From Convolutriloba macropyga (taxonomy: Eukaryota), in NCBI RefSeq assembly GCF_964194025.1, contig NC_134477.1, forward strand, positions 60,512,001-60,576,000: 64,000 bases of DNA, written 5' to 3'. Each line of letters starts with the position of its first letter. The first letter of the stretch is position 1. Under the pieces are notes generated by a model, which was given only the letters and a program-made list of their open reading frames with translations, was not told where the DNA came from and did no database searches. This document shows positions 2 to 44,614 of the stretch, piece by piece. The position numbers and the translations under genes were made by a program.

Positions 2-796
2 CTTAATACAACAAAATTAGGTTTAATTAGAATATCGGTTTATAATTCAGTGTTTAATGTGAATAGAAGAAATAATCAATTCTTAAATGCTAGTACTGTT
101 ATAGATGATGCAGCTTTACCCCAGGCTCTTAGTTCTGACCCCAGCTCTAACCCTAACCCTAACTCTACCTCAAGCCCAAAGATCACATCTGTTCTTAATT
201 ATAATTATAAAGGAATTCCATTGCTATACTCAACTATTACACCGGGGGCATATGAGTTAACTGACATAGCAGAATTAATAAAAGAAGAAACTAATGATAA
301 AGTTATAATAGAACCTGATAAGAATACGATGAAATGTTTAACTGAAATAAAACAGGGAGCAATTAGTTTTGATGTAGAAAACTCAATAGCCTTATTACTA
401 GGATTTAGAAAAATAGTTTATAAAAAAGTTAAATAAACATCTCAGAAAATTGTTGATATTATGGGTTTTAGTACTATTAACATTCATTGTAATGTGATAT
501 CTGGTGTTAAAGATAATGGGAATAACACAGACATACTCTTTACTTTTACTCTAACAGAACCACCAGGTTACTTGATAAATATTATACCAACTAATATCTT
601 GTATCAAAATGTAACTAAAGATAGAATAGAATATATAGAGTTTCATATTAAAGATGAGCATGGAAAACCTATAGACTTTAATGATGATGTATTAAGTTTT
701 ACTTTACATCTAGTGTGTTTAGCAGACCGAAGGTCTATTTGTTTTAGATATAAACTTAAACTTAAACTAAACTACAAAACTCTCCGATCCCAATAA
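2..796 (+). pseudogene. Minor capsid protein (penton), 5' end outside window, in-frame TAA at 434-436
   Basis: ORFs 50-436 and 461-796 are in one frame. Motifs YNSVFNVNRRNNQF, LLGF and INIHCNVISG..NG..DILFTF..PPGYLI..P..ILY..IEFHIKDEHGKPIDF..FTLHL are typical of Polinton/adintovirus pentons. Confidence 0.7.
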
Positions 797-2205
797 ATTC
801 TAAGTTTACTATTAATATTTTTATTTTTAGTTATATCAATGACAATATAATTATAAGGCTCTTTCCATACCTTATTACATATAATAGCAAAATAATTATA
901 ATTAATTTCAACATTATTAAAAAAATCTTGATGTGTCGATGCTAGGACTTTACCTCTTTGTTCAAATGATTTAAATAGATTGCAATTCTCTCTAACACTC
1001 TGCCTATCCAGAGAGAGAACAGGTTTTGATTAAGATATATCATATTACAATTATTATGTCTACCTCTACAAAAGTATTCATTAATAACTGGTTCTCTGGT
1101 TCTAACATCATCGAATATCATTAGTTTCTTTAAATCTTTGGGTAGTTGATCGGGAGATTGTAAATCTTTTATATCTTTAATAAATTCTATATCTGCTTTA
1201 TCGTTTATCTTCTCTAATCCATTGTATTGATCACCAGTAGGTCCAATGATGTATAGCTTATCAAAGTATATACTAGCTAGAATTAGTTTTTTTAATAAGA
1301 ATGTCTTACCACATTCACTAGGACCAGATATTATACATCTGAAGTTATCTGGGAATGCGGCTTCAGTAATTATATCATCATCATTTAGCCACGATTTTAG
1401 ATCTTCATTTACATTTACAGATATATTATTAGTTGGACTATTAATAATGCTATTACTAATGCTATTACTATTAGATTTACTCCTTTGATGTTTTTCATCA
1501 AATAGATATATAAAATTATCATCTGCGAAGCAGGTTCCCTGATCATCATTATTATCATTATCTTTATTATTATCATTAACATTATCATTATCATTCTTAT
1601 TATCATTATTATTATCATTATTATCATCTGCAAAACAGGTTCCCAGATTATAAATATCAATGGCATTATCAATGACATTATCATTAACATTATCATTATC
1701 CTTATCCTTATTAGCAAAGCCACTTTGTAGATCCTTTTCCTTATCCTTATCCATATCTTTATCATTAACACTATCTTTATCATCACCTCTACTACATTTC
1801 AAACAAGAAAACTCATTATATATTTCTGGATATTTACATTGATTAACTAGAATATTTAAAGCACTCTTAATTCTAAATCCTCTATCAATAAGATAGATCA
1901 TGTAAAAACAATAAGCCCCACAATAAGATTCATCATATTGTTGTATTCTCTCATTAGAGCCTAGATCAAACTATTTTTTCTAAAAATAATGGTGGGGTCT
2001 CAACACCAAAACTATCAAAGTAATATGTTGGACCGCCTTCTCTACTTATAACTAGAACCCAATGTGTACCAACAGTTAGATGTAGATTTATAATAATGTT
2101 AGAGTTATCATCTGTGATATTATTTGGTTTCTCATCTCTCATTACTATCTCAATTGGTGTTAGACTTATATCTTTTCCTATGTCCTTTATTCTGATATTA
2201 CTCAT
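772..2205 (-). pseudogene. Adenain-like cysteine protease fused via a D/N/K-rich linker to an A32/FtsK-like packaging ATPase (frameshifted)
   Basis: GTHWV..YYFDSFG (1966-2205). After a frameshift near 1967, QQYDESYCGAYCFY runs in frame into ORF 942-1901, which has Walker A GPSECGKT, Walker B LMIFDD and RGRH. The shifted C-terminus ICNKVWKEPYNYIVID ends at the stop 772-774. Confidence 0.75.
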
Positions 2206-2293
2206 AGCATTATTATCAAAATTAGATTTATTATTGAATTCCTCAAAAGTTAGGATGAGCGTTTTTTTATGATAAATTATTAAAGTTATTTAT

Positions 2294-2396: not shown

Positions 2397-2524
2397 TATT
2401 TTATATATGAAAATGGAGACAGGTAGCGTAGTTTTTTTTATTTTTAATATTTATAATTTGTTTTATAATATATAACTCAATACCAAGTAATTATACAAAA
2501 CTAGAGGAAGGCTTTGGTGGATTT

Positions 2525-4220
2525 ATGAATAGGAGTCTAGTTAGATTTGAATATGAAAAGTCACCATTACATACGATTGTTTATGGTGGAACTGGTACAG
2601 GCAAAACATATTTTTTTAGGCAATACTTAAAATTATACTCAGACCAAGACCAAGATCAAGTCAAGGACCAAGATCCGCGAAACGGTTACACCGATCAAAA
2701 CCAAGATGGCGAAGCATGGTCGGAGACCCATCGAGACCAAGATCGAGACCAAGATCAAAACCAAGATAAAGCCCAAAACCAATCTAAAAATATAGTTATA
2801 GTATGTGAAGATGATAGAGACTGGATAGATCCCGAGTCTAATAAGTTTTATACTGGGTTTAATAAATTTGATATAAATATGATCACAAAAAATAGTATGC
2901 ATAAATTTCAAAATTGTGTAATAGCACTTGATGATATGGGCGATAGGTTAAATAAAGATATAACTTATTATTTTAGTGAGGGTAGACATTATAATATTCA
3001 AATGATTGTAATGGGACATAAACCAGCTCAAATTGTTAATACAGCAAGAATGAGTTGTGATACTATTTAGTTAACCAATTATAATGGACCTGGTCTATTT
3101 AAAAATTTTAATGAGATATAAAAATGTGAACATGACTTTAGTAAAATAATCAGTGAATTAAATAGTAACTATTATAATCATACAGATGGAATGTCAGATG
3201 GGCTTCATTATGGTATAATTAAATATAATAGGAAGGAAAATACTTTTATTATTATTAATAGCATTAGAACAATGATATATGATTCAAGAGTTGGTTTCCT
3301 TGATTTAAATGCTCTTAGTTTAAAAGATAAGTTAGAAAGAGAAGATATAAATAAACTTATAGCATATATGAAACCACTCATGATAAATGCTACAGATAGA
3401 AATACTATTAATCATGATAATTATCAGTTTTATTTTGATAAAATTCTGACTTTAAATAATATTAAAATTCCGAATGATGTTTTAAGAGACGATTAAAGCA
3501 ATTGGTTTAAAGCAATTATCAAATATTGGTGGAATTATAAGTTCGATCTTAGTTATAACTAGTTATATTTATCCTAATGCAGTATTAAAAACTGTTGGAC
3601 ACGTGGCTATGGGTGCAAGCAATATGTTGAATAGAGTAAACACTTCGGTTAATGTTGGATATGGAGAAGATCTGGGAACCAGTTACACTGATATGCTAAG
3701 CAGTTGAGGAACCAAGACCGAAGGTCCTTCCACTGATCTGGGAATTGATCTACAAAATGATTACACTAATGGAGAAACACGGACAAAGTCCGATCTGGGA
3801 AATGATCTAAGAAGCGGTTACACCGATATAGGAACAGGCTCTGTCTATGACAAAACAAACGATTATTATATTTTAAAAAACATTTTAGTTAATAAGGCAC
3901 GCAAACTTATTGCACCCTTAGAAAAAATCTGCGAAGCAGTTTCACTGATAGAAGAAGAATATATATATGAAGAGATGGGAGTTTTCAATAGAAAGGTAGG
4001 AAGGTTTTTTAACAAACTATATATAAAAAATGAAGAATTTAGAGAAGAGATTATGAAATTGTTAGAGATAAAAAAGAATTAGACCTTCATTTGATTTTAG
4101 ATAAGAGATGTAAAACTAATACACTCAATACGTTAGGAAATGAATGTTTAGCAGAGTGTATCACATCTAAAGAGAATACTAAAGATTTAATTGAAATCAT
4201 GGCTAAGTATTTAACTGAGT
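2525..4220 (+). pseudogene. Second A32-like packaging ATPase with long C-terminal extension, several stops/frameshifts
   Basis: Walker A GGTGTGKT, DQ-repeat insert, Walker B VIALDD, EGRHYNI. ORF 3191-3496 is in the same frame after stops, and coding-like sequence continues to about 4220 (end approximate). Confidence 0.65.
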
Positions 4221-5076: not shown

Positions 5077-8000
5077 AAGTATAAAAAATTTTTAAAAAAA
5101 TCAAAAAAGAGTGATTCGCTCTTAAAGAGTGAAAAGGGCGATCTCCCTACTCAGGAATCACCCCGAAAAGAGTGAATCGCTCTTAAAGAGTGAAATTTAA
5201 AATATTAGCAAAATTTAAAAAACTTTTTACACGGCGGTCTCACTAGTTTTATACTAGTATCTGGGATACGTTCACCGGAGTCGGTGGGGATAGAACCCGA
5301 ACTATCCGTCTGATAACGGTTAATTACCAGCTTAACTCGACACTAGTGGTTTGCACTAAGTGAGACAAGAAATGATAGATTTAAAATATAAAAGAAGTGA
5401 ATATAGAGCTAATATATAGTAGTAGAAAATACAGGGAAATCAACAAACAGTAAAATTTGACCCAATTCGACATACGCGTTTAGCGTTTGCAGAACGGGTC
5501 AAATTTTTGCTGGTGGTTGATTTCCCTGTATTTTCTACTACTATTTTTGTCAATTGATGTTCGGATCATTAGGAGGAGATTAGTTTGAAAAAAGTCTATA
5601 TATGTTGTATTTACAAACGGATCATGCATTGGTTGGTTTTAACAGTTTAAACTGTAGCTCTTGATAGTAAAACTTTTCCAAAAGCAAATGAAGTGACTAA
5701 GGAAATTATTTAGCTCCTCTGAAAAATTTTATTTAGCTCCCTGCAATCAAATTTAATTCCAACGTTCGTTGAGGTAGCTCAGTGATATCCGTATTGAAGA
5801 TAAGACATAGTTTTCAAATTGTAACCAACCATTGGAATATGGACTTGCAAAAACACTAACAAACAAAACTTCTTGTAATCAAAATTTGTAAAAAAAAGTT
5901 TAAAACAGAGAATAGAAATAAATAATATGTCTTCCGTGTTTTTTACTGGTATTTACTGAATTGACTTTTGAATAGACTATCTCGCTAGCTTTCTGGCTTA
6001 TTCTGACTTTCAAAGAAGTCCAATTGGCTGACTAGAAACGAACTTAAACTATCTTTGTCGCTTTGATTGCCTAAAATGACATTGACTGTGGATCTTTGGA
6101 CAAAGTTTTCTTGCCATTGCGGAAGCGGAGGTTTTCTAGGAGAATTTACAATTTAATTGAGAGCCATTGTCTTTAAAAGAAAATTTAACAACCGGGAACA
6201 GCAAAGAATAAGGAAAAATTTCATTGTTAATACTGCTGGTATTATTTAGCTGTCTTACAAAAACACAAACATGAAACTACAGTGCAAGTTGAAGTATTGT
6301 TGTTTATGTTTTTCCAAGGTTTTTGTAACCAAATGCATTTCCATGTTATGTCGGCAATCATATTTCCCACGCGTAAAAAAGTGCAATCCTTTCGCTGGCG
6401 GTTCAAGCCTAGCAATAAAAGTGTTGGCCCCAAGCTAACAAATTCTGGTCTCAAGGAGACGGGTTGTAACGTGGCTCTTAAGGTAGTTAGTTTATTCTTG
6501 TAAAAGCATCATTTTTGCCCCAAAACTGGTGGATTTTCAAAGGAATTGACTTATTCTCCATTAATTGTCACAGATTTTCTGGAAAGATTCTGGAAAGAAA
6601 AAATCGACGAAAAACGTTTGTCTTTGTGATTAAATAATTTGTTTGTTACGATTTAACCAGAATTTTTCCAAATTTTTAGTCAATTTAAATTTAAACAATA
6701 TTAGCATTTTTTTAAAATTTCTAACGTGTTACTCGCAACTTTTTGTTCTGTTCGGAATTGCTGGTTAATGTGCTAATTTTCCTGAAATTTTTCCCCTGAA
6801 CTATTTGAAAAGATTCCTTCAAATATTGTGAGACAATTTTACTTTTAATTAGAGTTCGAAAATTCAGAAATGAGGCTAGCTCCAGTTCTAATTCTAATTC
6901 TAGTTGTAATTCGAATTCTAATTCTAATTCTAGTTCTGGTTCTAATTCTAATTCTAATTCTGGTTCTAATTCTAGTTCTAATTATAATTCTGGTTCTGGT
7001 TCTAATTCCTACCCTAAGATTGCCCCCAAGCACTAACCTTGCCCCTAGCACTAACCCTAGCCCCAACCCCAACTCAAACCCAAGCCCAAGCTCAGAAGTA
7101 TTAACTAGATGTTGTAATATAATATTAACTAAAGTGTAATTATGTAAAACCACTAGTTGATTTTGATGAGAGTAAGTATACATGTAGAAGTTGTACTTCA
7201 GCTAAAGTTAGTTGTCCATATTGTGCTTCTGTTGTGAGATATGATGGAATAAGGGCTCATGTAAAGAAACAACATCCAGATGTAGATATACGTAAAGGAT
7301 TTAGTAGAAGCATATTAGATAAAAGACAAAGTCCTAGAGCTGTAAGTCCTTTAGTTATTGTCCAAACAGAGGAAAGTTGTTCGTGTAAATATTATAATTT
7401 TGTATCATTTCTTATTAATAATGGGATAAATATAGAAAAAATAAAAGAAAATATATATTTATTGAAGAGTATAGATAATTTGAAATAAAAGTATAAAAAA
7501 ATTTTTAAAAAAATCAAAAAAGAGTGATTCGCTCTTAAAGAGTGAAAAGGGCGATCTCCCTACTCAGGAATCACCCCGAAAAGAGTGAATCGCTCTTAAA
7601 GAGTGAAATTTAAAATATTAGCAAAATTTAAAAAACTTTTTACACGGCGGTCTCACTAGTTTTATACTAGTATCTGGGATACGTTCACCGGAGTCGGTGG
7701 GGATAGAACCCGAACTATCCGTCTGATAACGGTTAATTACCAGCTTAACTCGACACTAGTGGTTTGCACTAAGTGAGACAAGAAATGATAGATTTAAAAT
7801 ATAAAAGAAGTGAATATAGAGCTAATATATAGTAGTAGAAAATACAGGGAAATCAACAAACAGTAAAATTTGACCCAATTCGACATACGCGTTTAGCGTT
7901 TGCAGAACGGGTCAAATTTTTGCTGGTGGTTGATTTCCCTGAATTTTCTACTACTATTTTTGTCAATTGATGTTCGGATCATTAGGAGGAGATTAGTTTG

Positions 8001-9283: not shown

Positions 9284-12200
9284 AGAAGCAAGCATGACCA
9301 GCAGCTAATGGTTTTTATACCAAAACTTTTACAGTAATTATATATTGAGAATCACAGCCAAAAATGTAGCTTTGAGGTTGGGAAAAACAGTCTGAAAATG
9401 TACCTAGTGAAAACGGTTGCATGATGCACCGATCTTTTTTCGTTTTACTCTGTTCTAGAAACTCAAACTTTTATTACAAATTATCAAAGTTATAGTGAAG
9501 ATAAAATCAGATTATAAAAACTTAAATTGTGAAAAATATCGATCACCTAATAATGAACCAAGTTAAACAGTGTGTATTTTCAAAAATAGAAAACTGTAAT
9601 TTTTTTTACCTTTTTGTTGAGGTAGCTATTTGATATCCGTTTTAAACATAAAACATTGCTTCCAAATTTTAACCAACAAATGGAAATGTAGACTTGCAAA
9701 AACACAAACAAACAAAACTTATTGAAATTAAAATTTGTCAAAAAAAATCAACATAGAGAACAGAAGTGATTAAAAAATCTTCCGTGATTTTCAATGCTTT
9801 CTGATAAGAATAAAAAATACAGTTGGTTAAGCTTGAAACGAAAACACTAATGTACTCAGTCTTCGGACACAAATTTCAATTCATTCCGGACGATTATATT
9901 GGTACAAAGGTACAACTCTAAAAACGCTTGAATGGATCTCTCAAAACTTTTCTGCAAAAACGAGAGCTTCAGTGAAAATCTTGTGGTACTGTTAAAAAGA
10001 CTGCTTTGCTAGATTTATGATTTATTCTCACTTTCAAAGAAGTCCAAATGGCTCGCTAGAAAACCTAAAAAAACCATCTTTGTCTTCTTGTTGTCTTATA
10101 ATCATTTCTTGGCAGTGAACCTTTGGACATAGTTTTTCTGCCGCTGCAGAAGCGGAGGTTTTCTAGGAGAATCTACAATTTGGTTGAGATCAATTGTTTT
10201 CAAATGAATCATAATATATAAAAAAACAAAGGTTGAAAAAATATTGATCGCCTCATATTGGAACAAACTAAGTAAACATATAAGAATGTCGGACGAATAT
10301 CTTTCAAGCAACCGGAGAAAAATTGGCTTGGGTAATACCCAGATGTCACTAAGAGGTGCTAGAGTTCGTGGTCATGGGTGACTGGAGCGGGGGTGGGGTC
10401 AAGCGATGATGAAGGTTGTTGAGTTGGGAGGTCTTAACGAGAGGGGAGTTCAAATTGGCAGGTCTAGGAGGTTGGACTTTGGATATTTTGGTATGTGTTG
10501 AAGTGGGGGTTGAGCTGAATGCGTTAGGGATGAGTGGAGATAGTGTTACTGAGGGGAGAAAAGGGGTGTTTAAAAAAAGATTAAGAACCGCCCTTCATAC
10601 CAAAAATTTGTCTACTCAAAATGATTTTGATGAATTTAACTCTTCAAGACAAGGCTAGGCTTAGGGCTCTCAGAGAATTCAATGCTATTTACAGAAGAAG
10701 GAGTCCTAATACTACAAAGAGTTAATGAAAAATGAAACAAAAACAGTTTCCGTGAAAAATTCAACTTCTCATGGTGTTTTTAAATCTGGAGTTTTAATAT
10801 TTAAAGCTAGCGTTTCAGTAGTTCTCTGTCTTTTTGAGACAATTGTGTCGAATTTTCGAATAATTGAGATAGATTTTCAGATAATTTTGCAATCGATGTT
10901 CAGAACGTTTGGGGGAAAACTTTTGAAAAAAAGCTGCCAGTGGATGAAGCATTGGTTGGTTTTAGCAGTTCTTAAAGTGACTTATATGCTTTTTGTTTAA
11001 AAAAAGTTTTACAATTAGTTCATCATACAAAAACACAAATAGAATTATTCTCCACAAACAAATGACAATTCATTCAAGAAAAATTTATCCCAATAAAGAT
11101 TTTAAAATGCGCCATGAAACTCTAAAAACATCTGACAATTTCTTTTTCCTTTCTGCAAACAAGAGAGCGGAAAAAATTTTGCAGTACTTTTGAATCGACT
11201 AGCTCGCTAGTTTTATGGCTTTTTCTGACTTTCAAAGAAGTCCAATTGGCCGGCTAGAAAAGACCTTTAACTTTCTTTGTCATTTTGTTTTCTCAAAATA
11301 ACTTTTTGACGGTGAATCTCCGGACGAAGTTTTCCTGCTGTTGCGGAAGTGGAAGTGTTCTTAGAGATTCTACAATTTTATTGATATCAATTGTTTTCAA
11401 TAGAATAGTTCACAATCAGGAAAAGCAGAAGAAAAGAAATAGATTGTTAGAACTGGGGCATTATTTAACTGTGTTAAAAGAATACAAACGTGCAATTTCA
11501 GTGCTAGTTGAAGTAGTATTGTTGTTGTGGTTTCACGGTTTGTAACAAATTGCCTTTCACTGGTATTTACGCAATCAGCTTTACGCAGGAAATTGACTTT
11601 TTCTCTTTCATTATATACTGTTTTTTTAAACCTTTTAAAAGAAAAAATCAAACAAAAACGCTTGTCTTCTACAACCCAACAGACAACTATAACAGACATC
11701 AGTGTTTCAGAGAAGCAAGACGAGAGAAGCACAAGTGGAGAAGTGACAGAGGAATTGAAGCTGGTGACAAGACGACCTGAGAAGTGGAGAGACAGGCAAC
11801 TGACGAAGGAACAAGACGAAGGAGTGAGACCAGAAGCAGTAGCCCTTGCTTAGGGAGTATGAGAGGTGCCTTGAAACCTTACCAGTAGCCTAGTAAATCA
11901 TCCGAAAAGTTGCTGGTGAGGTGAATTGGTGCCTTCTTTGCTTTTTTTCTTGGCGTAGGCTAACTTAGTGATCCCCTAGACCACACCGGATTAGCACCCC
12001 GAAGCTGGCACAGCTCCCCATAAGACTTTTTTCAAATATAGGATAAGTGTTTTTGCAACTTTCAACATAGAATAAAGGTTACTGCAACTTTTAAGTTTTA
12101 TAGAACAAGTGTTTTTGCAACTTTTTAACTTTTATAAAATAAACGTTGTTGCAACTTTTGACTTTGCCTTTTTCAGAGCAATAAAAACTAAATTGAATTG

Positions 12201-12293
12201 TTTAGATATATTCTGACTACCGGGACGCCGGTTAATACGAACAAAATATTAACCCTCCCTAAAACCTCCGAAAACTGCCCCCAGGCCCAAAAC

Positions 12294-13663
12294 ATGAAAA
12301 ATCATTTAGACCGCGACTGCGTGCAACCGCAAACAAGCACCCCCTTCCGTCCCCCCACAAACGACCCATATGAACCGACCCTATCTGACGAAAGCATAGA
12401 ATTGGGTCTAGAGATAGATATGGTCCCAAATCCACAAAATGAAAATGGTACCACTTTTTCTAACACCCGAAAACGGGCCCTTGACGCAGGTGAAACAACC
12501 GAAGCCGCTAGTAAACGCCCTAATGTAGAGCAGCAAAAAGTAAACACCGATAACCAACGAATTGTTTACATTAATTTTGAGGGAGAGAGACCTCGGCTAG
12601 CTACTTTTGCCAACACCATGAACAAACTTACTAAACAAAGAGAACCGGGCAGTGTAAGAGAAATGCCAATGAGAAATGGCGTCTCCATAAAACCTAAAAA
12701 TAAAGAAGCATCGAAATTGCTTACAACACAGAACATCATACAAGAGTTTCAAAAGAAAGAAGTAAAAATTAACTCTAACAGCAACAAAAGCCGAGAAAAA
12801 GTAACTCCGTGCTTTGTAGTCACAAAAGTTTCGCTAGATGTAAGCCTAAACACAATTAAAGAACAACAAGATGAACAAGGAATCAAATCGGAAAAAATAT
12901 TTAGGGTCAAAAGCAGCGTTACAAACCAGGAAACAAGACTAGTTACAGTCCTTACTAAAGAAGAAAACCAAGCAAAAAAAGCAATCACAAATGGGGTAGT
13001 ACTGTGCCTACAAAAATTCAAATGTGAACAATCAAAACAACAACGAAAAGTAGTGCAATGCTTCAAATGCCAAGCACATGGTCACATAGCAGCAAACTGC
13101 GATAACATGCAAAGATGCCCAATATGTGGTGGACACCACCACGTCAAAGATTGAAACCAAAATGAACTTTGCTGCGCAAATTGCATTGAAAAGCACAGCG
13201 CTGCCTATAAAGGTTGCCAAAAGTATAAAGAAGCAAAACCAAAAGCACGCGCTGCTTCATATGCAGAGGCCCTCAAAAATAAACCAGAGAACAAGGACAA
13301 AGAAAGAGCGCAAAAAATAGCAAGTGATGCTCAAACACAAATCAAAAACAATCTCCAGAGCATGCTATAGAGTCACTTTACCAAACTAGAAAACAAAATT
13401 GAACAAACAACAAAGATTGCAAATGAACAACTTAGAATCGACCTCCAGAGTCAAATCGATCAATTAAATATAAACCTGCAAAATACAATAAAAATAAATA
13501 AAAAACGAGAGAAAATATTAGGAAAACAGTCATGGAGGACGTCACAAGAGTGCGATGTGAATTTTTAAAAGACAACAAAATAACAGTAGATGAGGTGAAA
13601 ATGAGACACAAACTAAATAAACTCAGTGAGAACAGAACTAAAAACCAGAACACCCACCACTAA
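12294..13663 (+). pseudogene. LINE ORF1 (Gag-like nucleic-acid-binding protein)
   Basis: Three knuckles CFKCQAHGHIAANC, CPICGGHHHVKD[TGA] and CANCIEKHSAAYKGC are in frame across the TGA at 13152-13154. Further stops downstream; end approximate. Confidence 0.85.
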
Positions 13664-13723
13664 GAGAAACAACAATTTGAAACAACTTCAAAATCAAAAC
13701 GGTATAAAACAAAAAAAAGCAAA

Positions 13724-16405
13724 ATGATTGAAAAACAAAAATCACAAAAAAACACTTATATTCACGCAGCTAAACTGTCGCGGACTAAATAAAAACAAAA
13801 TAGAAATATGAAATATATTGGAAAAAACCCAAGCTGACTTAGCCTGCCTGAACAAAACTCACTTAGGTAGGAAAGAACAACCAAAACTAGAAGGATATAA
13901 CCTAGCAGGAAACACTAAAGACAGCCGCTTAGGATCTGCAATCTACATCAAACACCGATTAAATTACGAACTTATAGAAACAAAAACAGATAAATCAGAG
14001 AGCAAACTAACACAAGAATGTATTACAAAAAAAGTACTTGGATTCTACGTAACAAACATCTAGGTATCACCACATTTAGAAAAAAGAACGGACCTAATCA
14101 CAAAAATAGCAAACAACGAAGCCCACTTAATCACTGGTGATAATAATGTAAAACATCCAATGTTTGGAGCCAATGATCTAACCACTAACAGATTGGGAAA
14201 ATTAATTGAACAATGGCTTGGTGAGGAAAACTATATAATACTAAATATTTATGATTGCACACACAAAGATGGTGGAACACTAGATGTACACCTAGCCAAC
14301 CCTAAACTCACAAGCTTATTCGATAATTTTTATGTCTTCAACGAAAGTCCTAGTGATCACTACCCAAATGTTAGCACCTATAACATAGACAAACCAATCG
14401 AGTCACACAAAAAAGTTAACTGGCAAAAGTACAAAAATCACATCTTGCATAATTCAGATGACCTAGATAGAAACATAACAAACAAAATGAACTTAGAAGA
14501 AATCATAGACAAAATTACACAAAAAATTCAAGCTGCATACAAATAGAGCATATATGTTAACGAACACATAGCCACAAACCATCAAATCAATAAACTGACA
14601 AGAGAAAAGCATAAGTTAGAAAGAAATAGGAACAAACTGAGAAGAAACGACGAAAGAAATACAACCCAACACCAAACAATATGCAATAAGATTAATATAC
14701 TGACAAAAGAAATAAAAAGAATAAGTAAAGAAAACACAACAAGACAACAAATGAAACTAATTGACAAACTAAACCAAGCAAAGAAAGGCAGTTACTTCTG
14801 GAAAGCTGCAAAAATTTTACTCAACCAAAATCAGAAAAACAACGAACAATTACCATTGAATAATCAGGAAGCTGCAGATGCATTCGCTGAAAAACTAAAA
14901 ACAACAATGAAAACAAACGAATCAAAACACATAAGGGAAAAGATCACGAGAAAAATATTTCACTGAAAATAAGAGAAACAAACTTTAAGGCAATCAAACT
15001 AAGTGAAGATGAATGGAAACACACAGAAGTAAAACCTTCAACTCTCAAAAATATATTAGGAAATCGTAAAAATACTGCACCAGGACATGACGGAATAAGC
15101 TATCAAATGATAAAACATTTACCATTAAAAACCTTAGAAAACATAGCACAAACAATTCAAACATCATTACAATTAGGACATGTACCAGCCCAATGGAAAA
15201 TTTCAACCATAACCATGATACCAAAAGTAGGAAAAGATCACAAAACTTTAAAAGGATACAGACTATTATCATTAATATTTTGCCTTGGAAAACTGTGCGA
15301 GAGCATTGTAAACAAACACCTGGTAAACCACTGTGAAAAATTAAACCTGTTCGGTGATCAACAAAGTGCCTTCAGATCTGGCAGATGCACAACAGATAAT
15401 CTTCTAACGCTAACAGGAAAAGCAACAACAAGCTTTAAATGGAAAGGTGCCACAGCTGCTGCATTTTTCGATGTAGAACAAGCTTTTGACTCAGTATGGC
15501 ACGAAGGTATCTTATATAAGCAAATTGAGATTAAAATACCATGGCTGATCACAAAATGGACTAGCAGCTTCCTAAGTAACAGAAAAATTAAAGTAAAATA
15601 CAACCAAGCACTTTCCAAAAGTTTCACAACCGAAGCAGGGGTCCCCCAAGGAAGCATTATAAGCCCAATCTCGTTCAATGTGTATGTAAGCAAACCAAAA
15701 TGTAAAGATACGTCAATTTCACAATATGCAGATAACATCGCAATATACTACACACATGAAAAACAAGAAATAGCTACTAAACACTTACAAATCGCAATTA
15801 AACACTTAGAAAAATGGTGCGAAAAATGGAAAATAGTCCTCAACGCGGGAAAAACAATATATACCATCTTCACTAGACAAATACTGAACACAAATCTAAG
15901 ACTAAGTTTAGGGTCAGAAGACATCAACGTCAGCAAAGAAGTAAAATTTCTTGGACATGATCTCAATTATAAATTGACTCGGACAAAACATGTAAACAAA
16001 ATAGTCGCAAAAATGCAACAAAGAATGAACATGCTAGGACACCTAAAATCAAAAAACATAACACCTAATTTTATCATGTACCTTTATAAAACAATGGTAA
16101 GACCACTATACATGTATGCAAATGCAGCCTGGGCAAATGTAACAAAAAGTGATCTCAACAAGATACAAAGAGAACAAAATAAAGCCATAAGACTTGCATA
16201 TAACCTACCAATGTGGACAAATTTAGATGAACTACATCAAATAGGAAATTTAGAAATAGTGAGCAGAACAATCCAAAAATTAAGCTCGGAATACCTTGCA
16301 AGGACCATAAAACGAAATAAAAACAGTAAAAACATAACAGAAAAACATTTAATAACTTGGAGCCAGGTCAAAATGTTTCAAACTCATTTGCAAAACATTC
16401 TATAG
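13724..16405 (+). pseudogene. LINE ORF2: APE endonuclease plus reverse transcriptase, disrupted
   Basis: QLNCRGL, TGDNN, GTLDV and SDHYP (APE); WK..IPKVGK, Q.AFR, FFDVEQAFDSVWH, GVPQGS and YADN (mutated YADD) (RT). Confidence 0.92.
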
Positions 16406-27674: not shown

Positions 27675-30010
27675 GAGAAAACATGAAAGAAATGTCTTCC
27701 ATTTAGAAAAATTTTAAATTTTTGCAATTCTTTTTGATTAAAACTCATTTTATAGATTTATCTTTGAACAAAAACACATAGAATCAGTCATCTGCAGAAG
27801 TTGAAGCTTAAGAAAACACCTTGTACTAATTTTGAATGGACTGGCTCGGCTCACCAGATTTGTGACCTATTTTGACTTGCAAAAACTGTCTGGCCATGAA
27901 GAAGCTTGTTTAAAAATAGAAAAAACTAACTTTGTCTGTACAATGAAAAAGGCAGAGAGCAAATTACCGACATCTAAAAGGATGAAGATGAAAGCTTGAA
28001 ATTGACTTTAGTTGTCAAACTACACTTCACAATGAGATCCAAAAAACCTGCAATTTTGGAGAAAAAGTTATAAACGGAGGAGGCTTATATAGGGTATTTA
28101 GATTAATTTGGGAAATATTTTATTTTAAAGTGTTAATTTTTGAAAAAAAGATTTCTATTTATTGATATTTCGTCCTTCAAAAACTTATGAAGCTTTCCAA
28201 AAATTTGAGGACCATCTTTAAGAGATAAAAATTGTCAACCTACGTTTTCTAGGCTGCGTTTTTCCAGCAAAAAGATTACAAAAACCAACTACTGATGTAC
28301 TACGCTTGCGGTTGCTCTTGATATACGAAAACGTATATCAAGTTATGGTCTTTTTCTTGTAAAAACTCTGGCTTAAAGAAATTGATGCCATTTTTAGATT
28401 TCAGAAAAGATTTGAGAAATGTACATTTTTGTTAGGTTTTTTACTCTGAAATCGTTCAAGCAATATATGGTGCAACTAATTAGCATCAGCTTTGAAGATA
28501 CACACGTTGTCAATAATGTTCCCATATTAAAAGTTTGCAAAAGCAATAATCAAAAACAAAACGTATTAAGACAAAGGTTCATTTATAGATTTTAGAAAAC
28601 TATGCACTTCCAATGTGTTTTAAGAATAGCTATCAAATTCTTTTTTTCAATAAAAACCACTTTTCGGACCATTCAAATTCACTCTTTTTCAAGCTATATT
28701 TTATTAAACCTTCCAATAAATGAAAAAAATACACAAGCAAATGTTGATTTTACCCAATTATCGATTCCAAAACATCCCATTTATGTATTTAACGACCATT
28801 TATGTATTTAACAATTCCAAAAAACTGATTTCCGAAGATACTTTTTCGACAAAAATGCAACTTCTGATGCAATTGTCAATGATAATTGCACTGATTTGAG
28901 GTTGGACCAGCACTCCTGTCGTCAATCTTTTGATTTGATCTCGCAATAAATTAATGAAAAATTGAACAGTTACGAAAAGTAATTTTTGAAAGCAAATGTA
29001 ACATGAAGGTTTATGGGGTATGGGAAATCTAAAGAAAAGTACAGACAAACCTGAGGTAAGCTAGAACATCAGTTTGAATAGATAACTCTATTAGCCAACG
29101 CGCAGTGAATTTATTTTTCCCCAATACTTGTGAAAAAGGTTCAAATCTATTGACAAAGCTTTTAGAAACGTACTACTGAAGTTGAGCTGTCATGGCAACT
29201 TTAACGCCAATTAGGGGCGCAAAGTGTTTGCTAATTGCAAATAGTTGACATGTTCAACATAGCAAATTGTGTACTTCCTCGCCTGGCTCCTTCCAAGCAT
29301 TCTTGCAGAAAGATATGATTGCTGCCAAAAGTAAATCAAACTTATACAGAAACGAGTATGGTAAAGACAGGATTAAACATGAGCGAATGATCAAGCTTTT
29401 GAATTTTTTTTTTAAAAAAACAAACACATCTAAGACGGCTACATGCCTTAAGCGCGCACTTTTACATTTAGAAGTTAGTGAGAATGCACTAAGATAAATT
29501 CAAAAATTTGTAGTAAAAAAACATACGAATGAAGGTTGGAAGCGGAATTTCCGCTCTGTCAAGGACACTGTGACTTCTCGTTAACAAAAGCCCGGCATTT
29601 CAAAACAACTATTGTCAAAACCTGACGGAAGTAGTCGACTTCTCAAAAACCTTTTATAGCAACAAACAAGCGAAACAAAACGAATCAAATTTAATTTTAC
29701 TTTAATAATACACAATCAAAATATTCCTAAGCATCCCCTCAATCCCAACACAATTCATTAACATTTTTTGGCACCCAACAAAACAGCTTCGAAACCACAC
29801 CTAAAGCTAAGTATTGTTTTTAAAAAAAAACATACATTCTCCAATGAGCTAAGCCGATGTGCACCATGATTTTTTTCAATGTTTCAGAATATCCAAATAT
29901 CAGAAAATAGAATTGTTCATACAATGGTGGGGTAACTACACAAAAAGACACAAAAAGACAAAGATAAAGATTGCAACATTCAGAATTTTATCGATATTTA
30001 ATTTCGCTTA

Positions 30011-31590
30011 TTGCTTTTCGGTTCTTCTGGTTTTTTACCCACCCCGAGGATCCCCTTCTGGTTGGTCGTTTCCCCAACCCCCCACTTGCTTTTCGGTTCT
30101 TCTGGGGTTTTACCCACCCCGAGGACCCCCTTCTGGTTGGTCGCTTCCCCAACCCCCCACATGGTTTTCGGTTCTTTTGGGGTTTTACCCACCCCGAGGA
30201 CCCCCTTCTGGTTCGTCGTTTCCTCAACCCCCCACTTGCTTTTCAGTCCTTCTGGAGTTTTACCCACCCCGAGGATCCCCTTCTGGTTTGTCGTTTCCCC
30301 AACCCCCCCACCCCCACTTGCTTTTCGGTTCTTCTGGGGTTTTACCCACCCCGAGGACCCCCTTCTGGTTGGTCGCTTCCCCAACCCCCCACTTGTTTTT
30401 CGGTTCTTCTGGGGTTTTACCCACCCCGAGGACCCCCTTCTGGTTGGTCACTTCCGCAACCCCCCACTTGGTTTTCGGTTCTTTGGGGGTTTTACCCACC
30501 CCGAGGACCCCCTTCTGGTTGGTCGCTTCCCCAACCCCCCATTTGCTTTTCGGTTCTTCTGGGGTTTTCCCCACCCCGAGGACCCCCTTCTGGTTGGTCG
30601 CTTCCCCAACCCCCCACTTGCTTTTCGGTTCTTCTGGGGTTTTACCCACCCCGAGGACCCCCTTCTGGTTGGTCGTTTCCCCAACCCCCCACTTGCTTTT
30701 CGGTTCTTCTGGGGTTTTACCCACCCGGAGGACCCCCTTCTGGTTGGTCGCTTCCACAACCCCCCATTTGCTTTTCCTTTCTTCTGGGGTTTTACCCACC
30801 CCGAGGACCCCCCTTTTGGTTGGTCGTTTCCCCAACCCCCCACTTGCTTTTCGGTTCTTCTGGTTTTTTACCCACCCCGAGGATCCCCTTCTGGTTGGTC
30901 GTTTCCCCAACCCCCCCCACCCCCACTTGCTTTTCGGTTCTTCTGCGGTTTTACCCACCCCGAGGAACCCCTTCTGGTTGGTCGTTTCCCCAACCCCCCA
31001 CTTGCTTTTCGGCTCTTCTGGGGTTTTACCCGCCCCGAAGACACCCTTCTGGTTGGTCGTTTCCCCAACCCCCCACTTGCTTTTCGGTCCTTCTGGGGTT
31101 TTACCCACCCCGAGTACCCCCTTCTGGTTGGTCGTTTCCCCAACCCCCCCCCACACTTGGTTTTCGGTTCTTCTGGGGTTTTACCCACCCCGAGGACCCC
31201 CTTCTGGTTGTTCGCTTCCCCAACCCCCACTTGCTTTTGGTTCTTTTGGGGTTTTACCCACCCGGAGGACCCCCTTCTGGTTGGTCGTTTCCCCAACCCC
31301 CCACTTGCTTTTCGGTTCTTCTGGGGTTTTACCCACCCCGAGGACCCCCTTTTGGTTGGTCGTTTCCCCAACTCCCACTTGCTTTTCGGTTCTTCTGGGG
31401 TTTTACCCATCCCGAGGACCCCCCTTTTGGTTGGTCGTTTCCCCAACCCCCCCACTTGCTTTTCGGTTCTTCTGGGGTTTTACCCGCCCCGAAGACACCC
31501 TTCTGGTTGGTCGTCTCCCCAACCCCTCGCCTTCTTTCCGGTCTTTTTGGGAATTTTACCCGCCCCAAGGACCCCTTCTGGTCGGCCGTA
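30011..31590 (+). repeat. 60-bp C-rich minisatellite (about 26 copies) in BEL 5' leader
   Basis: Unit TTGCTTTTCGGTTCTTCTGGGGTTTTACCCACCCCGAGGACCCCCTTCTGGTTGGTCGTTTCCCCAACCCCCCAC-type sequence repeated tandemly, followed by GGTAGGTATT short repeats to about 31860. Confidence 0.9.
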
Positions 31591-31933
31591 TTGATAAATT
31601 CCGGCTTTCGGTAAGTATTGGTAGATTCAGGCTTTTGGTAGGTATTGGTAGGCTCCGGTATTTGGTAGGTATTGGTTTTGGTAGGTTTTGGTAAAGACGG
31701 CCTTTGGTAGGTATTGGTAGGCTCCAGTATTTGGTAGATATTGTTTTGGTAGGTATTGGTAGGTTACGGCTTTTGGTAGGTATTGGTATTTGGTAGGTAT
31801 TGGTTGGTTCTAACACTCATAGGGCATTGATATCGATAGGTTTCAGTAGGTTCCGGCATTAAAAACTACTACTGTTACCACCAAACATTCCTGATTTTAC
31901 TCGGTTTGTCTGAACTACTCTGACTTCTCATTA

Positions 31934-34900
31934 ATGGTTGAGACGCGGTCAACCTCAAACAATGCAGTGCCCAAAATGAGTACCAGTTCATCCGATTCCC
32001 CAGATGGAGCAATGTTAACTCAACAATCCACTGGTACATCAACAGCAATCAAGTCAAATGAACAGAAGCGTTTGGAAACCTCTAAACTTATGATCGAAAA
32101 TGACATAATACATACTGACTACCTGATCACTGCTATAGAGTCCTCAGAAGATATCGAAACTTTAGAGGAAACAGCTAATGAAATTAGGGAAATTCAGCAG
32201 AAGCTTGAACCAGTTTTCATTGACCTAATCAGTGGCTTGGAGCCTGATGAACAAGATATTATGTCCAGAGAACACAGTCGTTTGAAGATAGAAATAAAAC
32301 AGACTCTGACACTATTCCGAAAACACGCTAAAGAGACAAAAAGGCCTCTCCAGCAAACCTCATCTGGTTGATTACCCTTGAACTCCAATGAGAACATAGA
32401 AACACATGACAACACCTTGTCACATTTACAACAACGCCGGACTCATTTTGTCTTTCACGAAACTCTTTCGACTGATCACACCGCTCAAAGCAATACGTCA
32501 GCGCCTGCTGCAAATTCGCGTTTTGTCAGTTATGGTTATACTGCACCCGGTGGTACAACTATACCTGTCAACAACATCTCATACACCTCAAATTGTAAGA
32601 TGTCAGCTGCACCCTGCAGTGCATCTCAGCAATCGTTCTCAACTTTTCCTTGCGGATTTCCCTCAACTGATAGCAACTCACTTGGACAAAATAACTTTTT
32701 TCCATTAACACAGCCAAGCTTCAGTAATATTCCTAACACATCAGTTACGCAGATGCCATTTGCACCTATACACAGTGCCTGAATGTCTACTTGCTTTCAA
32801 AAATCCGTCCCCAAGTTACATGCGGACCATTTTGATGGTGATCCAATAAGCTGGATGAAATGGTACAGCTTTTTGCATGCTACAATTGACAGAGCACCAA
32901 TGACATCTTCTGAAAAAATGATTCACCTACAATCACTATTAACAGTTGAGGCAAAAGCCCTCGTCGACGGCTATGGTTGCAACGGTGACTTATACGCTTC
33001 AGCACTTCATCGCCTTCAGGAACACTTTGGGAATCCAAAGCGAATTGTAAACGCTTTCCTTGAGAAACTGAATAGATTCAAATCACCCAATTTATCCCAT
33101 CCAGAGAGCTACACACACTTCTTTTCCTTTGACAATGGTGGATACCTTTCAGCAATTAGGCTTCGTTCACGACCTCCATTCAACTACCAACCTAAATGTG
33201 ACGCTAGCAAAATTGCCCAATCCCGTACGCCTTGAGTGGAACAAATTTGTGTTAGGAAAGGACTTCCAGCAACCATCTCTACAGATACTTTCTGACTGGC
33301 TTCTGAACTACTCCAAAGCGTGTCGAGATTTAAACTCTAGCCTCCAAACTTTTCAATCAAGCCACGCACAATCGTCTGGGAAAATTTCTCCGAGTGTACA
33401 AAACTACACTTCAGCTACAAGTGGATGGAAAGCTAATCAATATAAACAGTCAAATAGCAGTTCTAGCAGGAACTTGACAGTTGAAGGCAGGCAACCCCCT
33501 GTGAAACTTTGCCCAAGCAATGAAAGTTGTCAATTCCTATACAAATGTACCCACTTCCAAGCTCTCCCAGCAAGCATTCGCAGAGAGCACATCAGAAAAC
33601 TTAGATTATGTTTCAACTGTTTTGAAAACCATCACGTAGAAGAGTGAACTTCCAAAAACTTTTGTCGAAACACCACACTCTATTGCACGATAGTTTCGCT
33701 ATTAAGTCAGGTTCAAAAAAGTCTAATGTGAAAACTTTAAAATTACAAGGAACAGGACAGGTAGCCGTTGTTCCTGTACAACTCAAAAACGGTAATGAAG
33801 TTTTGGATACTTATGCCTATTTGGACAATGGTAGCTGCCAAAGCTTGTTGCTGAGGTCAACTGTAACAAATCTGAATTTAAACATGAATACCATTGGAAA
33901 AATGCCAATTAGTAGCTATCATATGACTAAATAAATTGATTGTGCACCTGTGAAACTTCAAATTAGACCCTTACAAGGGGAACAGGCATTCGAACAAATA
34001 GACGTCGTCGCCGTTCCAGATCTCAATATGTCACCCGTTGATACAAAGAAACTGAATCGCCTCTGTGATTCCTTTGAACACCTCAACCATATATGTTTCC
34101 CAGCCATAGGGGACGATAATGTTTCCATCAATCTCGGAATTGACAATCTAGATCTGATACACTACAAACAAATAGTTAAAGGACCCAAGAATGCACCATG
34201 GGGAGTTGAAACCCAACTTGGTTGGACATGCGCTGGAAAAACTGACTTAATCCCACATGATTGCAATCCAGTTCAATTCACTCAGCTAAACAGCCATCCT
34301 AATATGGACAACAGTATTTTCAAGTTGGTCTCCGATTGGATGAAAATTGAAAACTTAGGCATAGCATCATCCAAGAAAGCAATGTCTAAAAATAACAAAA
34401 GAGCCCTTGATATTTTAGAAAATACCACTAAACTCGTCAATGGTCATTATGAAGTTGGACTTCTCTGGAAAGAGAACGCCGATCTCCCAAATAACAGATG
34501 GCTTGCGGAGAAACAACTTTATCAGCTCAACAATAAACTTTCAAATCATCCAGAATTAAAGCAAAAATACGAGGAAACGCTTGAAAAAGACTTGCAGAAC
34601 GGCTATGTCACAAAAATTAAACAAATTAAAGAACAACCAGATGAAGAGACTTCGTTCCTTCCTCATCATCCCGGGACTAATGAGAACGAACCTGGAAAAG
34701 TACGCCGTGTCGCTAATGCATCAAGTGTGTTTCAAGGTCAGTCCTTAAATTCTAATCTTGTGAAAGGTCCAGACTTGCTGAGCAATCTTACCGGTGCAAT
34801 TTTCAGATTCCGGAGAGCAAATCAGTGCTTTCCGCTGATATTGAACAAATGTTCATGCAGGTTAAGGTAGCTCCCGAAGACAGAAAATTCCTACGCTTCC

Positions 34901-37584
34901 TTTGGAACAATGATGGTCGTATTAAAACTTACGAGTACACCAGTCACATTTTTGGAGCCACAGATTCACCATGCATTGCCTCATATGCTTTGCGAAAAAC
35001 GGCTCGTGACAACGAAGAACAGTTTCCAGATGCTCTCAAATTTGTAGAACGCAACATTTACATGGATGATCTCTATGTTTCCACAAATTCACTCAAAGAT
35101 GCTCAAAAAAACTGCAGGGAATGAGAAAAGTTCTTTCTAAGGAAGGTTTCAACCTAACCAAATGGAATTCAAGCAGTCCTGAATTTCTAAATTCAATAGA
35201 ACCTAAAATAAGGTTACATCCAGACAACGCTCTCCCTCAGTACCAAAATGTACTTGGCTTACCATGGAACGCAGCATTAGATTGCTATGTCATTGAATGT
35301 AAACTACTTCAAAAAATCCATATTTCAGGCAACGTAGCTCAAAGAGTATTACTCAAGTTGGTGGCGTCTTTTTTTGATCTCCTTGAGTTCATAGCGCCTC
35401 TAACAATTCGTCTACGAAAAGTTTTACAAGCCGTCTGGAACCATGGTCCAAAATGGGACAAACCCCTTTTACTCGATAACATCCAGGATTTCAGTAGTTT
35501 AAGGGAAGAAACTCCAACATTTAAGGTCATCGAAATTCCTAGGAATTATTTCCTAGATAAAACTATTAGCTCAATTGAGCTTCATACCTTTACTGGCGCT
35601 TCGGAATACGCTCTATCTGCCGTCTCGTACATGCGAATTGAGTAATCGGAACGATCGATCTCCGTTAAATTTGTTATGGGCAAGGCTCGTGTAGCCCCAA
35701 TAAAAAAGATGACTATCCCCAATCTGGAATTGCAAGCCGCTGTGTATGGAGCCCAACTAGCCCAGTTTATAAAAGAAGAACAAGATATAGAATAGTCAGA
35801 TTGTGTTTTTTGGTCTGACAGCACTACCGTCCTGTACTGGCTGAGAACACCTGAAATGCGCCATTGAATATTTGTTGCAAATGGAATAGCCAAAATTCTA
35901 GATGTCTCCTCCACTTTCGGTTGGAAGTACATTTCAAGCACAGCTAACCCTGCAGATGATGGAACTCAAGGATGTACCGTTGAGCAAATGACATCAAAAT
36001 CTCGATGGATTTCAGGACCGTCATGTTTAAGTCAAAAAAGATCTGAGTGGCCAAAACAGGAAATTTTGCATGCTAAACAAGTAAAGGTTGTTTCGTTTTC
36101 TTCAGTAAACTCAACTGTATCAAACATTGTCGACGCGACAAGATTTAGCAGTTGGAACAAAATAATACGTGTGATAGCAGTCTGTATTCTTTTTTCGGAC
36201 AAATGTTGGAAAGGCAACGCAGAAATGAAGTTAGCACATTACATTAGAGCTTATCTGCACGTTATGCACAATATTCAAAAACAAGATTTTCAATCAGAAT
36301 ACATGTTGTTGAAAAAAAGACTTGAACTTCTGGTACTAGCCGATTGAAAGATCACCTTTCCTAGACGAGAACAACCTAATATGAGCACGTGGTCGCTTGA
36401 CAAAAGCAAGTCTTTTGATGACCGCTCGTCATCCCATAATACTTGACGGTAACAATGCTGCAGTTAAACTGCTGGTACAACACACACACGAAATTAATTG
36501 TCATTGTGGTCTCGAGCAGACTAAAAACACTCTCATGGAATACTATTGGATACTTTGCTGAAGAGCAGTTGTTAAACAGACTATACGCCACTGTTTGCCA
36601 TGTCGTAGAATGCTGCAAGATATTAGCACCCTCCAGATGGCTGATTTACCCGAGGAAAGACTACCCAGGAAAAATCAGTTTGTATTTGAAACAACTGGTC
36701 TCGATTTCATAGGACCCTTTCATGTTAAAAACAATGGCAGGTTATCTAGCCGATATATTTTGCTCTTCACCTGTCTTGTTGTTAGAGCAGTACATCTTGA
36801 AGTTTCGAATGATCTCACAACAGACTCTACAATCAACTGCATCAGGCGTTTTGTTAGCCGCAGAGGAAAACCCAACAAATTCGTCTCAGGTTGTGGCAAG
36901 TCTTTTGTTGGTTCAAACAACGCTCTGCAATCTAGCATCGCAGAACTGAAAGAATCAAAATTATTTGCAGCTAAGCTACATCTATTGAATGTGGAGATAG
37001 ATTGGAAATTTAATCCCCCAGCTGCTCCCCATTTCGGTGGAATTTTGGGAGAGAATGGTACACATTTTTGAACTATCACTTTACAAGGTCATTGGTTCGA
37101 GAACTTTAACTGACGAAATTCTGAATACAGTTTCTTGCGAAATAGAGGCAAGCATGAACTCCAGGCCTCTCACAAATGTTCCCTATGATATAAACGACCC
37201 CTTACCACTGACACCAAATCATTTTCTCCTAGGTCGTTCATCCATTAACTTGTCTCCTTGCGTCTTCATTGGTAAAGAGAAGAATCTTTCAAAAAGTTGG
37301 CGTTCATCACAACAAATTGCAACTCTTTTTTGGAATCGCTTCCTACGGGAGTATTTACCAACTCAACAAGTACATTGTAAATGGCATAAGACGTCGAAAA
37401 GTTTACAGGTTGACGACTTGGTATGGATTCTAGAAGATTTCACCCCTCGTGGCCTCTGGATTTGGCTAGAGTCATTCAAGTTTTCCCTGGCACAGATGGG
37501 ATTGTCCGATCAGTTAAGTTGAAGACGTCTTTCGGAGAACGCATTAGACCCGTTGTGAAACTGAGCAAAGTTTTCGCAGAATGA
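31934..37584 (+). pseudogene. BEL/Pao gag-pol polyprotein, multiple stops/frameshifts
   Basis: FDGDPISW..W (gag), LCFNC..H, YLDNGS (protease), SADIEQMF..HIFGATDSP..YMDD (RT), LHTF.GASEYA..KARVAP..LELQAA (RNase H), GLDFIGP..FTCLVVRAVHLE..APHFGG.WER (integrase). Confidence 0.93.
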
Positions 37585-44230: not shown

Positions 44231-44471
44231 ATCATTCAGTCAGTAGAAAGACGAAGTCATCATCCAAATGCTTTTCACACATCAAACATATTTCCGTGAA
44301 AAAAACGCACGTCAGCAAATTGCGAGTGACTTCAAATTAAACTAGTGTCAGCAAAAAGTAATACAAATTTGAAACTCATTCATTATCTACTTTGCGTCGA
44401 CACAGGTCAGTATCAAGTTCAAACCACAAGTTCTATAATTGATTAGACCTCAAATTGCGACTGAACTGAGC

Positions 44472-44614
44472 GGATCTTTTCCGTTTGTGCCCCCCAATGA
44501 GAGGGAACGTGTCATTACACACTAAATAATAATGTAAAAATATGGCACGTGCGTCTCGGGTGCAAATGAGATGCGCCCATCCTAAGCTTGGGGGGACACA
44601 AACAGAAAAGATCC
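44472..44614. mobile_element. MITE, 143 bp, 8-bp TSD (Merlin-like)
   Basis: TSD AACTGAGC at 44464-44471 and 44615-44622; TIR GGATCTTTTCCGTTTGTGCCCCCC / GGGGGGACACAAACAGAAAAGATCC. Confidence 0.85.

What the first reader, a model, noticed from the sequence alone, without database searches (positions are those of the whole stretch)
772..2205. Polinton maturation protease apparently fused to a packaging ATPase
The catalytic Cys segment of the adenain protease (QQYDESYCGAYCFY) continues with no stop into MIYLIDRG..., then through about 150 aa of D/N/K low-complexity linker into an A32-like ATPase. The only break is a frameshift inside the protease. In Polintons, adintoviruses and virophages these are normally separate genes. 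Inference: a protease-motor polyprotein, possibly self-cleaving, could couple DNA packaging to capsid maturation.
Basis: partly seen in the sequence, partly recalled or inferred. Interest (0 to 1): 0.7.

Follow-up and report, generated by a model that had tools for sequence, protein, structure and literature searches.

The report
Polinton protease fused to packaging motor

Summary
The fusion is real and belongs to the family; it is not a stop lost in this dead copy. The window copy is broken twice (in the protease and in the ATPase), not once. Among 101 distinct genomic copies, 52 read without a stop from the catalytic Cys into Walker A, and 20 of these to the ATPase end. The other breaks are scattered, with no shared stop and no conserved internal Met. 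Five lineages (protease identity down to 47%) keep the join with different linkers of 40-264 aa, so the D/N microsatellite came later. Shared linker indels keep the frame, and both domains show dN/dS near 0.3. Predicted folds match clan CE proteases and the viral packaging ATPase B204. Self-cleavage is not supported: no Gly-Gly or Gly-x-Gly site is conserved in the linker. The element also carries a second, divergent ATPase with a hydrophobic N-terminus (120 of 120 loci). No fusion turned up outside this host (weak searches), and no RNA run was available. The scan had not noted this fusion before, only zinc-finger-ATPase fusions. Verdict: new variant of a known kind; the coupling mechanism is inferred.

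The parts
772..2262 (-). Protease-linker-ATPase fusion gene (this copy broken by two frameshifts and lacking the family's start codon)
1969..2262 (-). N-terminal part of the adenain/Ulp1-type (clan CE) protease, with catalytic His 2062-2064 and Asp 2014-2016
   Evidence: fold of the domain from another genomic copy:
1966..1970 (-). Frameshift 1, inside the protease
1815..1967 (-). C-terminal part of the protease: Gln 7 residues before catalytic Cys 1920-1922, then the closing helices
1415..1815 (-). Linker, stop-free: Cys-rich start, D/N hexamer microsatellite (about 1515-1790), non-repeat Ser/Asn part. Length varies between copies (40-264 aa)
772..1415 (-). A32/FtsK-HerA packaging-type ATPase: Walker A 1302-1325, Walker B 1107-1118, RGRH 1056-1067, sensor Gln 1026-1028, stop 772-774
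1011..1020 (-).
2432..3496 (+). Second, divergent A32-like ATPase, head to head with the fusion gene. Hydrophobic N-terminal helix and D/Q repeat insert; broken by a stop in this copy
2..718 (+). 3' part of the penton-like (minor capsid) gene, tail to tail with the fusion gene. MCP, core-like gene, integrase and pPolB lie to the left of the window

Best explanation
This Polinton (Maverick) family encodes its adenain-type protease and its canonical A32-type ATPase in one reading frame kept open by selection, and it likely makes one protein in which a flexible tether of free length brings the protease to the assembling capsid together with the packaging motor, probably without a programmed self-cut. 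Shown: one ORF in many copies and in five lineages; catalytic and motor motifs present; purifying selection on both domains; in-frame linker indels; no other protease gene in the mapped element. Inferred from Polinton and virophage biology: the ATPase would oligomerise at a vertex and pump DNA, and the protease would cut Gly-motif virion proteins such as the core-like protein with GxG repeats. The linker acts as a spacer and not as a structural bridge, because its sequence and length (40-264 aa) are free. The window copy itself is a dead insertion.
For: Own genome: 1576 first-look candidates. Of 30 loci picked on the protease-end DNA, 28 had both motifs; 16 of 28 are open from Cys to Walker A, 21 of 28 have an in-frame distance, and there are 25 different lengths. 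Of 120 loci, 14 were duplicates and 5 lacked the Cys motif; of the 101 left, 52 are open to Walker A and 20 of these to the ATPase C-terminus. Breaks in the rest fall from Cys+6 to Cys+350 with no common stop. Met occurs in the last 100 aa before Walker A in only 6 of 52 linkers. Older lineages keep the join with unrelated, mostly non-repeat linkers: L044 (47% protease identity, 70 aa from Cys to Walker A), L074-type (117 aa), L135 and L116. Fused proteases form one clade (98/95) and fused ATPases one clade (100/99), sister to the stand-alone 200-aa P0147. Gaps shared by 2 or more copies in the non-repeat linker of the older lineage: 5 of 5 in frame, against 1 of 6 private gaps. In the young lineage 40 of 48 post-repeat segments and 8 of 9 recurring length classes are in frame. 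Pairwise dN/dS is 0.30 for the protease and 0.32 for the ATPase over 17 open copies. AF2 pLDDT 78 and 92; best matches are clan CE proteases (adenovirus protease Z 8.4, rmsd 3.0, 116 aligned) and STIV2 B204 (E 2.5e-8; Z 15.2, rmsd 3.0, 169 aligned).
Against: No RNA or protein evidence of expression. The loci were top-scoring hits, biased towards intact copies; pairwise dN/dS values are not independent; the 5 shared gaps may be only 3-4 events. Codon-position bias in the old linker was uninformative. A hexamer repeat keeps frame without selection, so only the non-repeat indels count. Topology problem: in mavirus the protease must be packaged inside the capsid while the ATPase may sit outside (PMC6048507, passages), which argues for a cut somewhere. 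A second ATPase (dN/dS 0.49) could be the real motor. Pfam does not call either fused domain above its cut-off; identity rests on motifs, relatives and predicted folds.
Confidence: 0.55

Rival explanations
1. Polyprotein: the ORF is translated whole and then cut, by its own protease or another one, so that protease and motor act separately.
For: Catalytic His, Asp, Gln and Cys are kept. GG occurs in 17 of 52 linkers (SRGG 10, QGG 6, DGG 1). Mavirus protease cuts GG|X and GX|G and must be inside the capsid (PMC6048507, passages). A long disordered linker would be easy to cut.
Against: 35 of 52 linkers have no GG and only 3 have GxG; no site is shared between lineages; the older lineage's linker has none conserved.
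Confidence: 0.2
2. Fusion of convenience: an early loss of stop and start joined two neighbouring late genes. The frame is kept only because the ATPase has no start of its own, and the tether adds no function.
For: Linker sequence and length are unconstrained and accept microsatellite growth, as do other genes of the family. The fusion was seen in one host only. The sister ATPase P0147 stands alone.
Against: It has persisted since lineages now 47-50% identical split, with no split lineage among 101 copies. This does not separate it cleanly from the best explanation.
Confidence: 0.15
3. Division of labour: the second, membrane-anchored ATPase is the DNA pump, and the fused ATPase serves as a docking or regulatory subunit for the protease.
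For: The second ATPase is present head to head in 120 of 120 loci, including the oldest lineage. It hits Pox_A32 above the cut-off and keeps Walker A, Walker B and GRH.
Against: The fused ATPase has the full canonical motif set and groups with standard Polinton ATPases. The second one sits on a very long branch, has His at the sensor-Gln position and weaker constraint (0.49 against 0.32).
Confidence: 0.07
4. Two proteins are made from the locus by splicing or non-AUG internal initiation, and the open frame is incidental.
For: Cannot be excluded without RNA. Earlier AI notes describe introns in other Polinton-like ATPase genes (unchecked leads).
Against: Shared non-repeat indels keep the frame, which an intron or untranslated spacer would not need.
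Confidence: 0.03
5. Artefact: a stop was lost in this dead copy, or the assembly is wrong.
For: This copy is degenerate, with two frameshifts.
Against: Dozens of independent insertions and five lineages share the join.
Confidence: 0.01

Closest known systems
Polintons/Mavericks/adintoviruses (Polintoviricetes), PRO and ATP genes
   Same: Full gene set mapped beside the window: pPolB, rve integrase, double jelly-roll MCP (PF21738), penton-like gene, protease, A32 ATPase.
   Different: PRO and ATP are one ORF here. They are separate in L104, L107, L109 and the second Polinton of this window. In vertebrate Mavericks they lie in different modules on different strands (PMC8097293, passages). This family also has a second ATPase.
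Mavirus virophage protease MVP and ATPase MV15
   Same: Clan CE maturation protease and FtsK/HerA ATPase, both found in virions; MVP cuts GG|X and GX|G (PMC6048507, passages).
   Different: Separate proteins there. The MCP seen here has no C-terminal Gly-Gly extension, so the substrate is more likely the GxG-bearing core-like protein (inference).
STIV/STIV2 B204 genome-packaging NTPase
   Same: Top structural match of the fused ATPase domain.
   Different: Stand-alone archaeal virus protein, about 18% identical.
Other passengers on Polinton ATPases and proteases: C2H2-ATPase (P0261), rve-ATPase (P0302), zinc finger-like N-terminus plus acidic linker plus protease (P0300/P0301)
   Same: Both proteins tolerate added domains through low-complexity linkers.
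   Different: None joins the two morphogenesis enzymes.
TP-vOTU-pPolB polyprotein of Polintons (PMC11161782, passages)
   Same: Precedent for a cysteine protease fused to another core enzyme in these elements.
   Different: A different protease (OTU), on the polymerase, with predicted processing.

Membership tests
Polinton/Maverick | Protein-primed family B polymerase | tested here: inconclusive
   A long pPolB-like ORF lies left of the window, named from motifs recalled; the C-terminal piece scanned had no Pfam hit at E 0.01.
Polinton/Maverick | rve integrase | tested here: met
   PF00665 E 2.3e-5 (below the curated cut-off) on a family copy; 38-39% identical to the L104 integrase; homologue next to the window.
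Polinton/Maverick | Double jelly-roll MCP and penton | tested here: met
   PF21738 E 3.9e-23; penton-like gene 28% identical to the L104 penton.
Polinton/Maverick | Terminal inverted repeats and 6-bp target duplication | not tested
   Ends were not delimited; the right end of this copy is tandemly duplicated.
Adenain/Ulp1-type (clan CE) protease | His-Asp-Cys triad with Gln 7 residues before Cys | tested here: met
   Aligned with the L104 protease; window positions. The spacing rule itself is recalled.
Adenain/Ulp1-type (clan CE) protease | Clan CE fold | tested here: met
   All 28 rows with Z of 5 or more are clan CE-type proteins; adenovirus protease Z 8.4. This does not tell adenain from a deubiquitinase or deSUMOylase.
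Adenain/Ulp1-type (clan CE) protease | Cleaves virion precursors after Gly motifs | not testable with these tools
   No activity data.
A32/FtsK-HerA packaging ATPase | Walker A, Walker B, Arg finger (GRH), sensor Gln, second Arg | tested here: met
   Alignment with stand-alone Polinton ATPases, several of which hit PF04665.
A32/FtsK-HerA packaging ATPase | Fold of a viral packaging NTPase | tested here: met
   B204 is the top hit in both searches.
A32/FtsK-HerA packaging ATPase | Translocates DNA into capsids | not testable with these tools
   No activity data; a second ATPase exists in the element.
Self-cleaving viral polyprotein | Conserved site for its own protease between the domains | tested here: not met
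   0 of 52 linkers with [MLI]xGG, 2 with [MLI]xGxG, 3 with GxG, 17 with GG at unshared places. Non-canonical sites were not tested.

The most novel reading that the evidence does not exclude
A Polinton lineage has rebuilt its morphogenesis module: a tethered protease-motor protein sets one protease per motor subunit at the packaging vertex, so that DNA entry and capsid maturation are physically coupled, and a second, membrane-anchored ATPase partners with it. That would be a two-motor vertex not described in the jelly-roll virus papers searched.
Probability: 0.2. Interest if true: 0.75.

Novelty: new variant of a known kind. Interest (0 to 1): 0.5.

Why it matters
How Polintons package DNA and mature their capsids has never been observed; the papers read say no virions have been seen. 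A natural, selected fusion of the two morphogenesis enzymes suggests that they act at the same place and time. It also gives a single protein in which to test where the protease acts and whether the motor tolerates a large N-terminal load. It matters for annotation too: pipelines that expect separate pro and atp genes will mis-score this very abundant family and may take the second ATPase for the motor.

Tried and rejected
RNA: no RNA holder was listed for the gene. Contigs of four unlabelled runs were too short to span the breaks or the linker. Complex prediction of the protease domain with the ATPase domain: no answer, score 0.00, alignments not used; no evidence either way. ESM Atlas was unavailable.

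Search for the fusion outside this host found none, but the searches were weak. The 120 proteins listed and most top hits look like copies from the same organism (P0256 is 100% identical to a G000 locus), so they are not independent support; only 150 of 1680 hits were listed. A distant protease searched for longer proteins gave 2 hits, neither with an ATPase. An ATPase profile searched only proteins over 503 aa and gave 1 hit, rve-ATPase. Viral contigs gave no relative of the fusion and one standard Polinton. Metagenome contigs gave 8 loci: 2 show a separate protease on the other strand, and in 6 no protease was detected, several being short. PDB sequence searches were uninformative.

Literature: ten searches; three aimed at fusion or two-ATPase phrases returned 0 papers. 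Term passages only were read in PMC3671162, PMC11161782, PMC4028283, PMC8097293, PMC6048507, PMC12220804, PMC11131425, PMC12721341 and bioRxiv 10.64898/2026.10.13.758929, 10.64898/2026.06.19.733378 and 10.1101/2023.08.22.554363. For PMC8502044: passages, section 7 and a term search of its one held supplement (0 hits). None mentions a protease-ATPase fusion. Kapitonov and Jurka 2006, Pritham 2007, Repbase entries, genome-map figures and bioRxiv supplements were not seen and could show it.

Rejected: stop loss in a dead copy; the microsatellite as the origin of the fusion (older lineages lack it); a conserved self-cleavage site.

Full report
Observation. The minus strand of window 945-1970 is one 342-codon open frame. 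It runs from the protease segment with the catalytic Cys (1920-1922) through a D/N-rich linker to Walker A, Walker B, RGRH and the sensor Gln of an ATPase. Shuffles of the frame give open runs of 40 codons on average and never over 102. The family ORF starts about 19 codons upstream of 2205, where this copy lacks an ATG. This copy is dead.

Context. The gene lies in a Polinton with the order pPolB, PZ-like, integrase, two small genes, core-like gene, MCP, penton-like gene, protease-ATPase, second ATPase, C2H2 gene. Where genes were recovered, the same order holds in the diverged lineages at L144, L146 and L148. The genome is 1.18 Gb. An earlier AI note calls it an acoel worm; I did not test this.

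Is the fusion native? A DNA search gave 1576 candidates, 40 scored and 30 fetched. Of these, 28 had both motifs: 16 are open from Cys to Walker A and 21 have an in-frame distance, with 25 distinct lengths. Pooling four searches gave 120 loci, of which 14 were duplicates and 5 lacked the Cys motif. Of the remaining 101, 52 are open to Walker A and 20 of these to the C-terminus. The first stop in the others falls anywhere from Cys+6 to Cys+350, with no shared stop at the protease end; a few of these have a mutated or deleted Walker A and not an early break. Only 6 of 52 linkers have a Met in the last 100 residues, so the ATPase has no start codon of its own. These loci are top hits and lean towards intact copies.

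Age and selection. Older lineages have the same join with unrelated linkers: about 117 aa from Cys to Walker A without repeats (L074 type), 70 aa in L044 (47% protease and 50% ATPase identity), and two further types in L135 and L116. Fused proteases form one clade (98/95; L044 is on a long branch). Fused ATPases form one clade (100/99; L044 was too fragmented to include), sister to the stand-alone 200-aa P0147. The fusion therefore arose once and before the microsatellite (inference). Pairwise dN/dS over 17 open copies is 0.30 for the protease, 0.32 for the ATPase and 0.22 for the arm before Walker A; pairs are not independent. In 12 copies of the older lineage (2 more lacked anchors), 5 of 5 shared gaps are in frame against 1 of 6 private ones, though these may be only 3-4 events. 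In the young lineage (102 loci, 45 without anchors, 48 distinct segments), 40 of 48 non-repeat segments and 8 of 9 recurring lengths are in frame. Hexamer repeats keep frame by themselves and were not counted as evidence. Codon-position bias in the old linker was flat.

Domain identity. Pfam does not call either fused domain above its cut-off. The protease aligns with a Polinton protease at His, Asp, Gln and Cys. Its model (pLDDT 78) matches clan CE proteases, including adenovirus protease (Z 8.4, rmsd 3.0, 116 aligned), but bacterial deubiquitinases score as well or better. The ATPase keeps all motifs of stand-alone Polinton ATPases, and its model (pLDDT 92) best matches the viral packaging NTPase B204.

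Mechanism. Shown: one ORF under selection, with a linker free in length and sequence. Not supported: self-cleavage. Mavirus protease cuts GG|X and GX|G (PMC6048507, passages), but no such site is conserved in the 52 linkers. The MCP ends without a Gly-Gly tail, while the core-like protein carries GxG repeats, so it is the likelier substrate (inference). I favour an uncut tether that brings the protease to the capsid with the motor (0.55). The main objection is topology: in mavirus the protease is packaged inside and the ATPase may be outside. Hence a polyprotein cut at a non-canonical site gets 0.2 and a fusion of convenience 0.15. The second ATPase is as old as the fusion (120 of 120 loci). 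It is hydrophobic at its N-terminus, has His for the sensor Gln, is less constrained (0.49 over 27 copies) and sits on a long branch. It may be a partner or, less likely, the real pump.

Comparison. Protease and ATPase are separate in L104, L107, L109 and the second Polinton of this window, and lie in different modules in vertebrate Mavericks (PMC8097293, passages). No fusion outside this host was found, but the searches were weak or crowded by same-host copies. Ten paper searches and passages of twelve papers showed no mention (listed under Tried and rejected); Repbase and genome-map figures were not seen. Other passengers on these enzymes exist, which lowers the surprise somewhat.

Verdict. 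A real, selected, lineage-wide fusion of two core morphogenesis enzymes in a known kind of element: new variant of a known kind, interest 0.5. The bolder reading, a coupled two-motor vertex, has probability 0.2 and would merit 0.75.

Noticed in passing
window 2432-3496 (+); P0299: Second, deeply divergent A32-like ATPase, present in 120 of 120 loci. N-terminal hydrophobic helix (Kyte-Doolittle 2.36), His at the sensor-Gln position, variable D/Q insert (96-155 aa from Walker A to GRH), own long clade. One paper search for two-ATPase Polintons found nothing.
   Followed up: partly
L032:8696-10000 and L031:1-3711 (left of the window): The same element's polymerase gene holds an Asn-Thr hexamer repeat of about 4 kb that stays in frame. 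In-frame microsatellites also sit in the second ATPase and the zinc-finger gene.
   Followed up: no
window about 1800-1830 (-) and homologues: A Cys or small Cys cluster just after the protease's last helix is kept in all five lineages (ECFCLxC, ECC, KCLGC, NCLG). It might bind metal or act like the Cys-bearing activator peptide of adenain (recalled, untested).
   Followed up: no
window 4450-about 9000: The right end of the element, with the C2H2 gene and a 62-nt-arm hairpin at 5416-5544, is tandemly duplicated at 2412-bp spacing, 99-100% identical in the stretches shown.
   Followed up: no
window about 44200-56200: A second, unrelated Polinton with separate ATPase (45574-46281) and protease (50622-51158), integrase, penton, MCP and pPolB; used as an internal control. 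Its ATPase also has His at the sensor position.
   Followed up: partly
window about 12200-16400 and 31900-37500: Degenerate LINE-like element (zinc knuckle, endonuclease, reverse transcriptase) and a BEL/Pao-like LTR element, named from recalled motifs; 29850-31700 is a GC-rich tandem repeat.
   Followed up: no
P0300, P0301, P0302: Other Polinton fusions in databases: zinc finger-like N-terminus plus acidic linker plus adenain (P0300, P0301), and integrase with ATPase (P0302).
   Followed up: no
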